Assembly (NCBI RefSeq): GCF_036365525.1
Contig: NC_090404.1
Location: 7,068,001-7,132,000 of the forward strand
DNA: 64,000 nucleotides
Source: Heterodontus francisci
Taxonomy: Eukaryota
Reading direction: 5' to 3'
The notes below the pieces were generated by a model. It did no database searches. It was not told the origin of the DNA and saw only the letters and a program-made list of their open reading frames with translations. The position numbers were made by a program, and so were the translations under genes. Below, piece by piece: positions 20,941 to 50,378 of the stretch (the stretch's first letter is position 1; the number at the start of each line of letters is the position of its first letter).

Positions 20941-21705
20941 TTACAGTCTCTTGTGAACTCGCTGGTGTGTTCGCAGGTGGGATGACTGAGTGAACCCCTT
21001 CCCACACACAAAGCAGGTGAATGGCCTCTCCCCAGTGTGAATTCGCTGGTGATTCAGTAGGTTGGATAAATGAGTGAATCCCTTCCCACACATGGAGCAG
21101 GTAAACGGCCTCTCCCGAGTGTGAATTCGTTGGTGTGTCAGCAGGTTGGATGACTGAGTGAATTTTGTATCACAGACGGAGCAGGTGAAGGGCCTCTCCC
21201 TGGTGTGAACTCGCTGTTGATTTAACAGGTTGGATGAACGCGTGAATCCCTTCCCACAAATCGAGCAGGTAAATGGCCTCTCCTGAGTGTCAACCTGCTG
21301 GTGTGTCAAAAGATTGCATGAACGGGTGAATCCCTTCCCACACACAGAGCTCATGAATGGTCTATGCCCCGTGTGAAGTTGCTGATGTATCAGAAGGCTG
21401 GATGAATTCATGAATCCCTTCACACACAGAGAGCAAGTGAAAGGTCTTTCCCCAGTGTGCGAATATTGGTGTGTCAGCAGATCCTTTTTCCTTTTAAAGC
21501 TCTTCTCACAGTCAGAACAATTAGAAAGTTCAGTGTTAGAGTGAACAAGTTGATGTGTTCGAAGGTGGGATGATTGGGTGAATCCCTTACCACAAACAGA
21601 GCAGGTCAACAGTCTCTCCCCAGTGTCACTTCTTCGATGAGAATCCAGCTGGGATGGGTAATTGAATCCCTTCCCACAGTCCCTGCATTTCTACGGTTTC
21701 TCCAT
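20941..21705 (-). pseudogene. C2H2 (Kruppel-type) tandem zinc-finger gene, probable pseudogene
   Basis: MEKP*KCRDCGKGFNYPSQL... (TAG at 21691-21693), then 8 CxxC-12-HxxxH repeats with TGERPF linkers. Three fingers have lost a Zn ligand. Further decayed fingers extend to about 21950. Confidence 0.85.
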
Positions 21706-36231: not shown

Positions 36232-36277
36232 ATGAGCTCGGCGATTTCTCTCAGTCTGTTACTGGTTTTCTTATCCC
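36232..36277 (+). pseudogene. IGHV: VH leader exon (signal peptide MSSAISLSLLLVFLS)
   Basis: ATG at 36232, hydrophobic peptide, phase-1 donor C|GTGAGT at 36278. The 127-nt intron ends ttttttacag at 36404. Confidence 0.93.
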
Positions 36278-36404: not shown

Positions 36405-36706
36405 GTGTCCATTCAGATGTCGTGTTGACTCAGCCAGAGGCAGAGACCGGGAAACCTGGAGGCTCCCTGAGACTGACCTGTAAAACTAGTGGATTCAATC
36501 TTGGCAACACCCGGATGTACTGGATATGACAGGTTCCCGGGCAGGGGCTGGAGTGGTTGGTTCACTACGATGCTTCATCCAGCAATAGTTACGCCCCAGA
36601 GATTAAGGATCGATTTACTGCGTCCAAAGACACTTCAAATAATATCTTCGCTTTGGCCATGAAGAACCTGAAGACCGAAGGCACCGCCATCTATTACTGT
36701 GCAAGA
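36405..36706 (+). pseudogene. IGHV: VH exon with in-frame stop
   Basis: (R)[99 protein letters not shown]. The conserved Cys, Trp and Cys are present. WIR became WI* (CGA>TGA). Confidence 0.95.
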
Positions 36707-36725
36707 AACATTACTACATTGGGTA
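36707..36725 (+). other. Germline-fused D/junctional sequence AACATTACTACATTGGGTA
   Basis: Follows YYCAR directly with no heptamer, 23-bp spacer or nonamer. It is followed by a 12-type RSS. It resembles TACTACAGTGGG-type shark D cores (from memory). Confidence 0.75.
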
Positions 36726-36755
36726 CACTGAGCAGTTACTGTCAATACAAAAACT
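36726..36755 (+). other. Degenerate D 3' 12-RSS
   Basis: CAC(TG)AGCA + GTTACTGTCAAT (12 nt, 36735-36746) + nonamer ACAAAAACT (36747-36755). The CAC is 2 nt too far from the nonamer. Confidence 0.8.
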
Positions 36756-37060
36756 CCCTCAGCGCTAATTGAAGAGTCTGGGTCAGTGCTTGCTTTTACA
36801 ATCCAACTATATATACAGTGAATTTCTATTTGTGTCCAGCACTGTCCTACTCGACGGTTTATTATGGATAAACTGATGAATTATTCATTCATCAGTTGGT
36901 GATTTCAATAATTGCTGATATGTTGCTGAGTGAAATATAAAACATCAGGATAATGTACCAACAGTGAAAAGAATCATTAGCGCAGTTAGAATTTACAATT
37001 TTAATCTGGGATGTGGATGTTTAAAATAATGAGGGCTTTATCTCCATTCTGTGCAGAGCC

Positions 37061-37099
37061 AGTTATTGTGTGACCCTGCCCAGGGAATGTAACACTGTG
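37061..37099 (-). other. JH 23-RSS
   Basis: AGTTATTGT (37061-37069) + exactly 23 nt + perfect CACTGTG (37093-37099). Confidence 0.92.
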
Positions 37100-37147
37100 A
37101 CACCATGGACTACTGGGGACAAGGGACCATGGTGACGGTGACTGCAG
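37100..37147 (+). CDS. IGHJ: JH segment (TMDYWGQGTMVTVTA), unrearranged and intact
   Basis: WGxG motif; donor G|GTAAGG at 37148. Confidence 0.95.
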
Positions 37148-43065: not shown

Positions 43066-43362
43066 CGACACCGTCTCCCCCAACCCTTTACGGCCTATGC
43101 TCCTGTGCACAAGCCAACACCGGTGGCTCCGTGGCCTATGGCTGTTTGGCGATGGACTAGATCCCCCAAATCACCAGCGTTTCCTGGAAGAAAGATAAAG
43201 AGCCGATCACCACTGGATTGAAGATTTACCCGTCAGTGCTCAACAAGAAGGGAACCTACACCCTGAGCAGCCAGTTAACCATCACCGAGTCAGAGGTGGG
43301 AAGCAGCAAAATCTACTGCGAGGTTCGACGCGGAGAGTCGCTCTGGATCAAGGAAATTCCAG
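43066..43362 (+). pseudogene. IGHM: Cmu1 exon with nonsense codon
   Basis: [101 protein letters not shown] at 43158. Flanks are cccag and gttagt. Confidence 0.94.
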
Positions 43363-43574
43363 GTTAGTGTTGTGGAAACTGTGGAAAAACATAAAAGCTA
43401 TAGTGATCTTGTGTAGAGCTTTGGCTTTACGACATTTAGGGTATTGTGCACTGTTCTGATGCCAGGAAACTCCAGTTAGTATCTGCGTGACAACAAATAA
43501 CCTGTTAAAATAAAAGAACAGTTTGGATAAGTTATTAATGTCTTCGAGAAATATCTAACATGTTTTTCTTCAAG

Positions 43575-43892
43575 ATTGCAAAGGTGACATCGTCCATCCA
43601 ACTGTTATCCTCACCCAGAGTTCCAGTGAAGAAATCACAAGCAGCAGATTTGCAACTGTCTTGTGTTCAATCATCGATTTCCAGCCAGAGTCAATAACCG
43701 TGAGTTGGTTGAAGGATGGACAACCCATGGATTCGGGCTTCGCCACCTCTCCCGCCTGTGAAGTGAACGGGAACTTCTCGGCGACCAGTCGGCTGACTGT
43801 CCCCGCTGGGGGATGGTTCACCAACACGGTCTATACCTGCCAGGTCTCCCATCAAGAGGTCACCCAAAGCCGAAACATCACCGGATCTCAGG
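43575..43892 (+). pseudogene. IGHM: Cmu2 exon (frame open)
   Basis: [49 protein letters not shown]...[20 protein letters not shown]. Flanks are caag and gtaaga. Confidence 0.94.
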
Positions 43893-44915: not shown

Positions 44916-45740
44916 ACGGTTTTAAGGTACAGATCAGCCAGTGTCCACTTGGATGGCTGAGCAGGCTCAAGGGCCAAATGGCCTGTTCTTTTTCTTCTGT
45001 TTCTATTACTGCCCTCTAGTCACATGGTCTTCTGACTCCAGACTGACATATGAGGAGTTCTCACTCATGACATACATCAGAAAACTGCCTTTCACCGTTA
45101 TTGCTAATTATTCCCCACCTCAAAAAGATTCCACAGAATTGCACTTTCCCGGCTTTTGCCCCTCCTCTGATTGGTTGCTGCATATTTTCATCCTCCCAAA
45201 TATCGTGAGAAGGCGCTGGAAAATTAACGTTCTTCCCTGTTGGGTCTAAAATCCGGAATTCCATTTGACACTCGTTTTGAGCCAGTATGAATTCTATGTC
45301 TAGCTCGTGTCCTTGGGTGACAGGTGCGTTATATTCAGCGGAGATGTGATCGGGTGCAAGGATCAATGGACGGGCAGAAATACGAACATGCGAGCTTACG
45401 AGTTAGCAGTAGTAAGCCACTCGGCCCTTCTAGCCTGCTCCACCAGGGATTTCGGGAAGAACTTTATTCAGTGCGGACGCAATTTCTCACTCAATTATTC
45501 GATTTTTAAGCCGGGTAATTGCTTCAAAGCCCATTGCAGGCTTCTTAGTGTGCAAGTACGCAGTATATGTTATAGAATCTCCCGGAAGCTTTTTCCGGTT
45601 GTTGTCCTTCCAATAAAGTGTAATATGTAAGTTACAGCTTGAGGTTGATATCTCGAAATTGATTTATTTTCCTAGAGGCTGTATACAGGTGTCTGATTCT
45701 GAAGATGAATCTTTGATTTATTTCCATTTCTGTTTTACAG

Positions 45741-46049
45741 TTCCTTGCTCCTGCAATGATCCAGTAATTAAAGTACTGCCGCCATCAATAGAACAGGTCT
45801 TACTGGAGGCGACGGTGACGTTGACCTGCGTCGTGTCTCATGCTCCTTATGGCATCAACGTGTCCTGGACACAAGAAGAGAAGCCTTTGATATCTGAGAT
45901 TGCCGTCCAACCAGGAGAGGATCCCGACAGCGTGATCAGCAGCGTAAACATCTCGGCACAATCCTGGCTGAGTGGGGCTGTGTTCAACTGCGTGGTGAGC
46001 CATCAGGATCTGCCTACTCCTCTCAGAGATTCTATCCGCAAGGAAGAAG
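45741..46049 (+). pseudogene. IGHM: Cmu3 exon (frame open)
   Basis: [43 protein letters not shown]...[22 protein letters not shown]. Flanks are tacag and gtgagc. Confidence 0.94.
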
Positions 46050-46527: not shown

Positions 46528-46918
46528 ATAAAGATCTGCAGGACCCTTCCGTGTCTGTCCTCCTGCCCCCGGCAGACGAAGTCTCCACTCAGAGATTCCT
46601 CTCCCTCACCTGCTCAGTGAGAGGTTTCTCCCCCAAGGAGATCTTCGTCAAGTGGACCGTCAATGACAAGTCGGTGAATCCCGGCAACTACAAAAACACC
46701 GAGGTGATGGGGAGAACGACAATAGCTCCTTCTTCATCTACAGCCTGTTATCCATTGCAGCGGAGGAGTGGACCAGCGGCGCTTCTTACTCCTGTGTGGT
46801 GGGACATGAAGCGATCCCCTTGAAGATCATCAACAGAACAGTTAATAAATCCAGCGGTAAACCGAGTTTTGTGAACATTTCCCTTGCACTGTTGGACACT
46901 GTCAATTCATGTCAATGA
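46528..46918 (+). pseudogene. IGHM: Cmu4 exon plus secretory tailpiece, frameshifted
   Basis: [43 protein letters not shown]...TEVM, then a -1 shift at about 46710, then [48 protein letters not shown]. Internal donor G|GTAAA at 46856/46857. Tail [20 protein letters not shown] has an N-glycan site and a penultimate Cys. Confidence 0.94.
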
Positions 46919-49510: not shown

Positions 49511-50106
49511 TAAAAAGGCCAGATTACAGGCAAGAGCATTATTCAAATGCACTGTTTCAACAGACACCGTCTCCAACAATTTCCCTCATACATTTTGGAC
49601 CTGCAATCACAATGAAGTAATATTCTCAAAGAAACTGCGATAAATTGATGATTTCCCAACTACTTTCATGAGAAATAAACAAACAAGATTGGAATTCACA
49701 TCCGATCCCTTACTCAACACCACTGACAATCTCCAAGTAAGTAACTGTCTGATCCCTATCTTCAAAATAATTGTTATCGATCTGTAAACCTCCCTCGTTA
49801 TCTTCTCGTATTCCCTAATGATGGAACGAAATTGATGCAAAATAAAATAGAGCCTGACACTAAAGAAAAAAGAAACTGACACGTTTTCCAACACGGCCTG
49901 CATGAGGATGATAAAAGAAGAACGGCTGTGGATTTAATAAGAGAGAGAGATTGCTGAGCATGAATAACAACAATAAATAAGCATTGACAATTAAATTAAA
50001 GAACAAAATAACAGCTGAAGGAAGAGAACTCCAAATACAAAGTAACAATCTTAGATCCTGGAGTGATAAATCATCGAAATACATTTTCTCCTCTACATCT
50101 GCGTAG

Positions 50107-50234
50107 ATTCCTCAGACCACATCTGGATTGAAGACAATGAGGAAAAGAGCGGCAACATCTGGAGAACCGCTTCCACATTCATCATCCTGTTCTTCCTGAG
50201 CATTTTCTACAGTGCTGCCGTCACTCTGGTGAAG
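50107..50234 (+). pseudogene. IGHM: IgM TM1 exon
   Basis: DSSDHIWIEDNEEKSGNIWRTASTFIILFFLSIFYSAAVTLVK, a conserved antigen-receptor TM pattern. The donor reads AAG|TTGAGA instead of GT. Confidence 0.92.
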
Positions 50235-50378
50235 TTGAGAATATTCAATCCACTCACACTTCAATTTGACTGAAGCTGTTTGACAAATCTCGAAAAGTTT
50301 CATAGATTTAAAAAATAGTCTGAGATAAATATCCAGACCACGAAACCTCTGCTTCATTCTTTTATCCCTCTTTTACAG

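What the first reader, a model, noticed from the sequence alone, without database searches (positions are those of the whole stretch)
36698..37147. IgM gene frozen midway through V(D)J recombination: V fused to D, J still unjoined
Seen: YYCAR (ends 36706) runs straight into 19 nt of D-like sequence, with no V 23-RSS and no V-D or D-D spacers. One 12-type RSS, a roughly 305-nt spacer and a normal 23-RSS-JH remain. Known: shark clusters are V(23)-(12)D1(23)-(12)D2(12)-(23)J, and VD-J or VDJ germline-joined clusters exist in cartilaginous fish, attributed to RAG activity in germ cells. Inference: this is an inherited V-D1-D2 (or V-D2) coding joint. The class is known, but this junction preserves a record of that event.
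Basis: partly seen in the sequence, partly recalled or inferred. Interest (0 to 1): 0.75.

Follow-up and report, generated by a model that had tools for sequence, protein, structure and literature searches.

The report
Inherited half-assembled shark antibody pseudogene
This is a dead shark IgM antibody gene whose V, D1 and D2 pieces are already fused in the genome, likely by the lymphocyte recombinase RAG acting in the germ line, a kind of gene described since 1988; the fusion sits in four tandem copies, and this copy alone has also lost the signal it would need to join J.

Summary
Three near-identical tandem copies about 105 kb apart (0.2-0.6% diverged) share the junction and show its full 29 nt: trimmed V, 5 unassigned bases, 13 nt of D1, a 2-nt palindromic (P-type) addition, 9 nt of D2, then an intact 12-RSS. 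The window copy lacks 8 nt across the D2/heptamer border, so it has no 12-RSS left: its only CAC heptamer lies 14 nt from the nonamer. All four copies carry a stop in V and a stop in CH1, so they are pseudogenes. Four diverged copies with one junction argue for inheritance, not a somatic B-cell read. V-D1-D2 joins are a known class in horned shark, and here 21 of 46 J-bearing clusters are rearranged. The 8-nt loss may be a second RAG cut resealed badly (about 45%) or an ordinary deletion. The locus is more interesting than this gene: it holds D2 ends trimmed beside intact signals, N-like insertions and exact signal joints. Verdict: new member of a known kind, interest 0.3.

The parts
36232..36277 (+). 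Leader exon (ATG to GT donor); leader intron retained
   Evidence: sequence; same layout in split clusters
36405..36706 (+). VH exon ending YYCAR, about 3 nt shorter than unjoined V ends; in-frame TGA at 36527-36529 in all four copies
   Evidence: Pfam V-set E 9.8e-07 on the part after the stop
36707..36711 (+). 5 unassigned bases AACAT (N-like; 2 to 5 nt depending on the ancestral V end)
36712..36724 (+). D1 remnant: 12 of 13 nt match the D1 variant found in 4 of 24 split clusters; 3' end untrimmed
   Evidence: (shuffle p 0.0012)
36725..36726 (+). AC, the palindrome of the untrimmed D1 end (P-type addition; could also be mutated D2 bases)
   Evidence: inference
36727..36732 (+). D2 remnant: 6 nt left here, 9 nt (8 of 9 matching D2) in L002-L004
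36730..36733 (+). Site of the window-only 8-nt deletion spanning the D2/heptamer border; 2-nt microhomology
36733..36755 (+). Remains of the D2 3' 12-RSS: 12-nt spacer and nonamer (36747-36755) intact, heptamer lost
36756..37060 (+). D2-J spacer, 305 nt
37061..37099 (-). J 23-RSS with consensus heptamer
37100..37147 (+). Unjoined JH (WGQG motif) with GT donor
43066..43362 (+). CH1 with a TAG stop at 43158-43160
43568..43891 (+). CH2 (approximate limits), C1-set
45740..46048 (+). CH3, 85% identical to a horned-shark Ig heavy chain C region
46530..46915 (+). CH4 with a 1-nt frameshift near 46710, then the secretory tail ending NSCQ
50106..50240 (+). Transmembrane exon (approximate limits)

Best explanation
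This is an IgM pseudogene whose V, D1 and D2 are fused, likely by two RAG-mediated deletions in the germ line of an ancestor, present as four tandem copies, of which the window copy alone lacks 8 nt that include the D2 recombination signal. Shown: the fused layout, the parts of the junction, four copies, the stops, the 8-nt loss. Inferred: RAG cut at the V-23/D1-12 and D1-22/D2-12 signal pairs; hairpin opening, trimming and base addition gave the junction; the two spacers were lost. D2 and J remained a valid 12/23 pair but were not joined. The unit was later duplicated in tandem (stem of the four-copy clade 0.063 changes per site, copies 0.002-0.006 apart). The last step in the window copy is open: about 45% a second RAG cut at the D2 signal resealed through a 2-nt microhomology, 45% an unrelated deletion, 10% assembly error (my estimate). 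The gene is predicted to make no antibody; the window copy is predicted to be unable to join J.
For: All four lost RSSs are removed whole, and the breakpoints lie 0-4 nt inside the coding ends. D1 match p 0.0012 by shuffling. Exactly 4 copies of the junction in the assembly, 0 for the reversed control, about 105 kb apart, 0.40-0.60% different over 26 kb and 0.14-0.32% over a further 14 kb, forming a 100/100 clade. Leader intron, D-J spacer and spliced C exons are kept, so it is not a retrocopy. The same locus holds other products typical of RAG: exact signal joints (L034, L062-L064), an inversion with hybrid-type ends (L058), and D2 ends trimmed at an intact heptamer. Germline RAG joining is the published explanation for the class (PMC2193156 passages; PMC2193153 parts 1-2).
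Against: No sperm or second-individual data: no listed contig or read in 5 runs laid bridged the junction (inconclusive by the tool's own note). No close unjoined parent survives in the assembly (nearest V 92% identical), so the split of the junction into N, P and D bases is blurred by later mutation; the 5 unassigned bases are AT-rich, not the GC-rich pattern recalled for TdT. For the second-cut idea: the other border events seen keep their heptamers (4 D2 trims, both L058 ends, the signal joints; L051, with a changed first heptamer base, is the one possible exception), whereas this one removes 3-5 heptamer bases, and microhomology of 1-5 nt flanks all 7 multi-base indels among the four copies.
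Confidence: 0.9

Rival explanations
1. A somatic B- or T-cell rearrangement captured in the assembly. VDD-J is a common somatic intermediate in nurse shark thymocytes.
For: VDD-J intermediates are frequent in thymocytes (PMC2435157 passages). No read-level proof of the junction was obtained.
Against: One junction in four copies that differ from each other by 0.2-0.6% over 45 kb and carry different CH1 stops cannot come from one lymphocyte event. Family-specific contigs beside the junction sit at about four times the depth of single-cluster contigs in run X3 (44.8 and 39 against 9-11; weak: depth is no copy number and the run may be the assembly's own sample).
Confidence: 0.02
2. Ordinary deletions, unrelated to RAG, removed the spacers.
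For: Multi-base deletions are common in these clusters: 21 in 1.3 kb across 24 split clusters.
Against: Two separate deletions would need four ends within 0-4 nt of heptamer borders, sparing most of D1 and D2, leaving no RSS base, and adding unassigned bases.
Confidence: 0.03
3. A functional pre-joined gene kept for an early-life antibody, needing only one D-J step.
For: Germline-joined genes are expressed in neonates in nurse shark (PMC4279169 passages). Three of four copies keep an intact 12-RSS and J 23-RSS.
Against: All four have the V stop and each has a CH1 stop; the window copy and one other also have a CH4 frameshift. Expression of joined heavy-chain genes was not detected in horned shark (PMC2193156 passage).
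Confidence: 0.03
4. Sub-question: the window-only 8-nt loss is an ordinary microhomology deletion or an assembly error, not a second RAG cut.
For: 2-nt microhomology like the other indels; heptamer bases are lost, unlike the other border events in the locus; no read bridges it.
Against: Only 7 non-repeat indels of 3 nt or more in 44,780 aligned columns of the four copies; the chance that one spans either remaining cut site is about 0.0035 (computed after the fact). 3 of 21 deletions in split clusters start exactly at a heptamer border (p about 1e-4), so border events recur here.
Confidence: 0.55

Closest known systems
Germline-joined VDD-J IgH clusters of horned shark and skate (Kokubu et al. 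1988, not readable here; as summarised in PMC2193153)
   Same: V-D1-D2 fused, J and C unjoined, mixed with split clusters; the D1-D2 spacer inversion described there has a counterpart here (L058). CH3 is 85% identical to a Heterodontus francisci heavy-chain C region.
   Different: This junction sits in four tandem pseudogene copies and one has lost its D2 heptamer. I could not check whether this exact junction is among the 1988 clones.
Germline-joined NS4 light-chain genes of nurse shark (PMC2193156, passages)
   Same: Joined genes nested among split ones, several independent events, trimming and P bases.
   Different: That study found little sign of TdT; here some heavy-chain joints hold 7-15 unassigned bases between exact germline remnants (L007, L067). 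Four of six NS4 joins are in frame; these four copies are dead.
Somatic VDD-J intermediates in nurse shark lymphocytes (PMC2435157, passages)
   Same: Same layout and same kind of junction.
   Different: Somatic and cell-specific there; duplicated and inherited here.
Open-and-shut joints (definition from PMC2213516, passages)
   Same: Cut at a heptamer border rejoined to its own signal end; fits the D2 trims in L037, L042, L052-L055, L059.
   Different: The window's 8-nt loss also removes heptamer bases, so it fits less well.
IgM1gj of nurse shark (PMC4279169, passages)
   Same: Germline-joined IgM-class heavy chain.
   Different: IgM1gj is fully joined, expressed and lacks one C domain; this gene is partly joined, has four C exons and is a pseudogene.

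Membership tests
Shark IgM cluster | One V, D1, D2, J followed by four C-mu exons, secretory tail and TM exon | tested here: met
   tblastn exon map, 78-94% to P0001; C1-set hits; named IgM hits at 61-66%
Germline-joined VDD-J cluster | V, D1 and D2 fused with all intervening RSSs removed; J unjoined with its RSS | tested here: met
Germline-joined VDD-J cluster | Junction with trimming and P/N additions at coding ends | tested here: met
   V about -3, D1 -2/0, D2 -4, AC palindrome, 5 unassigned bases; the N/P split is uncertain after about 6% drift
Germline-joined VDD-J cluster | Inherited: present in non-lymphoid DNA of several individuals | tested here: inconclusive
   Four diverged tandem copies imply inheritance, but no run bridged the junction and the one run of another individual gave 0 reads
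Germline-joined VDD-J cluster | D2 3' 12-RSS retained | tested here: not met
   Not met in the window copy (14-nt spacer, heptamer lost); met in L002-L004, so the loss is later than the join
Functional pre-joined gene | Open V and C reading frames | tested here: not met
   V stop in 4 of 4, CH1 stop in 4 of 4
Open-and-shut joint (window 8-nt loss) | Change centred on the heptamer border with the signal end rejoined | tested here: inconclusive
   Spans the border (p about 0.0035) but removes 3-5 heptamer bases
RAG-made joint in germ cells | RAG (and TdT) present in germ cells or early embryo | not testable with these tools
   needs expression data from gonad or embryo

The most novel reading that the evidence does not exclude
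RAG has cut this shark's heavy-chain locus in the germ line again and again, and not only to join genes. It re-cut this already joined pseudogene after the recent tandem duplication and destroyed its last signal; it left open-and-shut scars at D2 in at least three separate lineages of split clusters; TdT-like additions were inherited; and one exact signal joint fuses an IgM D1 signal to the 23-RSS of a different, non-IgH V family. The assembled locus is thus a datable record of germline V(D)J activity, able to answer whether RSS, RAG and TdT all take part in heavy-chain germline joining, a point left open in 2000.
Probability: 0.45. Interest if true: 0.55.

Novelty: new member of a known kind. 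Interest (0 to 1): 0.3.

Why it matters
The gene itself is a dead example of a class in print since 1988. Its value is as one dated event in a fully assembled locus: Lee et al. 2000 (PMC2193156) wrote that for heavy chains it was unclear whether RAG, TdT or the RSS were involved, because joined and split genes were too different to compare. With 24 split and 21 rearranged clusters side by side the junctions can now be parsed, and they show RSS-precise ends, P-type and N-like bases, signal joints and likely reseal scars. If the 8-nt loss is a second RAG cut, germline RAG activity continued until less than about 0.5% sequence divergence ago.

Tried and rejected
Read evidence: the look-up of sequencing runs listed 24 runs; the 4 holding half or more of the words are one sample, possibly the assembly's own; no RNA holder on record. 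Five runs were laid (X3, X4, X5, X8, X21). No listed piece bridged the junction: 36715-36729 had zero depth in the 4 runs of the narrow call, and X21 (another individual, capture library) gave 0 reads. The tool notes that records are filtered, so this is no evidence either way on the junction, the 8-nt variant or expression. Reading CACTGAG as the 12-RSS heptamer: rejected, spacer 14. V-D2 join without D1: rejected. Retrocopy of a somatic transcript: rejected, introns and D-J spacer kept. L070 as a long N insertion: dropped, because its 16 extra bases resemble a D2 end plus heptamer. The automatic junction parser stopped after 10 of 16 junctions; the other 6 were read by eye. Identifying the non-IgH V family: one unnamed hit at 71%, none among longer proteins, only generic antibody V hits in PDB; no reciprocal coding joint among its 5 members. 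Kokubu 1988 (PMC454840) and Hsu 2016 (PMC4874517) are not held; PMC2191167 and PMC2192082 gave only abstract-and-reference-length text with no useful passage. Eight paper searches listed no genome-level description of this locus or of germline open-and-shut joints in sharks, but most subscription journals are outside the library and no supplements were read. Earlier scan findings: none.

Full report
Setting. The window is G000:C34:7068001-7132000 of a 6.0-Gb assembly. It holds one IgH cluster on the + strand: leader 36232-36277, V 36405-36706, JH 37100-37147, four C exons between 43066 and 46915 and a TM exon near 50106-50240. CH3 is 85% identical to a Heterodontus francisci heavy-chain C region and 61-66% to named IgM chains of other sharks, so the gene is IgM and the animal is likely a horned shark or a close relative.

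The observation. V runs from YYCAR directly into D-like sequence. No V 23-RSS, V-D1 spacer or D1-D2 spacer is present (449 and 377 nt in split cluster L033). A 305-nt spacer and a normal 23-RSS-JH follow. The claimed 12-RSS is not there: the only CAC upstream of the nonamer at 36747 gives a 14-nt spacer.

Paralogues. A DNA search found three copies at 98-99% identity, about 105 kb apart (L002-L004), and a pattern search found the junction exactly four times, with 0 for the reversed control. The three other copies have 8 more bases, which complete D2 and supply the heptamer CACAGCA with a 12-nt spacer, the D2 signal matched at 36 places in the locus. The four copies differ by 0.40-0.60% over 26 kb and 0.14-0.32% over another 14 kb and form a 100/100 clade on a stem of 0.063 changes per site. 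Their nearest relatives are L006 (a different VDD-J join) and L063, not a split cluster (44 rows, L051, L065, L069, L071 and duplicate L062/L064 left out). The join thus predates the tandem duplication and is inherited; a single lymphocyte event cannot sit in four diverged duplicates.

Junction anatomy. From 24 split clusters I took the V ends, D1 (mostly 15 nt) and D2 (mostly 13 nt). The 29 nt after V in L002 parse as 5 unassigned bases, 13 nt of D1 (12 of 13 matching, 3' end untrimmed), AC (the palindrome of that end), and 9 nt of D2 (8 of 9 matching) against the RSS. The D1 score was reached by 6 of 5000 shuffles; the unanchored D2 score by about 10%. Both D segments are present, so two deletions occurred, with all four ends 0-4 nt inside coding ends and no RSS base left. 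That is the pattern of RAG cutting with end-joining (established mechanism; PMC2193153 parts 1-2). The N/P assignment is soft: with one substitution the V end could extend 3 nt further, AC could be mutated D2, and the unassigned bases are AT-rich.

It is a pseudogene. All four copies share a TGA in V. Each has a CH1 stop, one in the window and L003 units and another in the L002 and L004 units; the window and L003 units also have a CH4 frameshift. Whether the V stop came before or after the join cannot be told.

The window-only 8-nt loss. However it is aligned within its 2-nt microhomology, it removes the end of D2 and 3-5 heptamer bases. Among 44,780 aligned columns of the four copies there are 7 non-repeat indels of 3 nt or more; the chance that one spans either remaining cut site is about 0.0035, computed after the fact. 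In the 24 split clusters, 3 of 21 deletions (23 listed; I dropped one end gap and one gap in an insertion column) start exactly at the first D2 base after an intact heptamer, in L037, L042 and L052-L055, with L059 a probable fourth (p about 1e-4 for uniform placement). L042 is sister to L031, which has a full D2. These fit open-and-shut joints (definition in PMC2213516), so border events do recur here. Against a RAG origin for the window event: those trims, both L058 ends and the signal joints keep their heptamers (L051 is a possible exception), and all 7 indels have 1-5 nt of microhomology. No read bridged the site. I put it at 45% second RAG cut, 45% ordinary deletion, 10% assembly error.

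The locus. A J pattern gave 46 matches, all on C34. By my reading, 24 are split, 21 rearranged and 1 (L071) unclassified; constant exons were checked only for the four copies. The rearranged ones are 10 VDD-J (7 junctions), 1 VD-D-J, 2 with D1-D2 joined, 2 V-DDJ, 1 D2-J, 3 VDJ and 2 inversions. L034 carries an exact signal joint with its D1-J coding joint, and L058 has the D1-D2 spacer inverted with hybrid-type ends, the layout that PMC2193153 describes from the 1988 work. L007 has 7 and L067 about 15 unassigned bases between exact germline remnants, which suggests TdT-like addition, unlike the NS4 light-chain joints (PMC2193156 passages). Four further V genes without J (L062-L064) carry an exact signal joint between the D1 5' 12-RSS and a 23-RSS whose 248-nt flank is 95% identical to that of L092, a member of a separate five-gene V family. 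That family looks TCR-like to me from recalled motifs, but the searches did not name it.

What is known. Partly joined VD-J/VDD-J clusters in cartilaginous fish, ascribed to RAG in germ cells, are in reviews (passages of PMC5192425, PMC4279169, PMC8355894) and are listed for horned shark in PMC2193153. VDD-J is also a common somatic intermediate (PMC2435157 passages). PMC12227049 (passages) does not discuss joined heavy-chain clusters of this kind. The 1988 paper could not be read, so I cannot say whether this junction was among its clones. Eight searches listed no genome-level account of this locus; the library lacks most subscription journals and I read no supplements.

Verdict. Real, inherited (0.9 for the RAG-made germline join), ordinary for its class, and dead. 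New member of a known kind, interest 0.3. The locus-wide record of reseal scars, N-like bases and cross-family signal joints is the lead worth following (probability 0.45, interest 0.55).

Noticed in passing
L062-L064 (G000:C34:6.70-6.73 Mb; 4 copies), e.g. L063:2025-2091; related flank in L092:1501: IgM-type V with its 23-RSS and spacer, then the D1 5' 12-RSS fused exactly head-to-head to a 23-RSS of a different five-member V family (TCR-like by recalled motifs, not named by the searches). Looks like an inherited cross-family signal joint; no reciprocal coding joint found among the 5 members.
   Followed up: partly
L037, L042, L052-L055, L059 (D2 segments): D2 shortened by 3-6 nt exactly at the intact 5' heptamer in otherwise split clusters; candidate inherited open-and-shut joints.
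   Followed up: partly
L034 (G000:C34:4249700-4254000): D1-to-J joining by inversion, with an exact signal joint and the coding joint both retained; its V is about 2.5% from split L038/L040.
   Followed up: partly
L058 (G000:C34:12957250-12959650): D1-D2 spacer inverted with hybrid-type ends, the layout described for horned shark in PMC2193153.
   Followed up: partly
L002-L004:1827-1864: The junction creates CACTGAG 22 nt from the D2 nonamer, overlapping the 12-RSS; 22 is the spacer of the normal D1 3' RSS here, so it may be a cryptic signal.
   Followed up: no
L007, L067, L068, L016, L061 junctions: Unassigned N-like stretches of about 5-20 nt in inherited heavy-chain joints.
   Followed up: partly
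L070 junction; L051 junction: L070 seems to keep a D2 end plus heptamer-like bases before J; L051 has D1 joined almost directly to a D2 RSS whose first base differs, and an insertion inside its J RSS.
   Followed up: no
G000:C34:6.95-7.38 Mb: Tandem unit of about 105 kb holding one VDD-J pseudogene (+) and one cluster on the other strand (L044-L048); SNP and stop patterns among copies are mosaic, suggesting gene conversion or unequal crossing-over.
   Followed up: partly
window 20944-21690 (- strand): 249-residue stop-free stretch of C2H2 zinc-finger repeats upstream of the IgM cluster.
   Followed up: no
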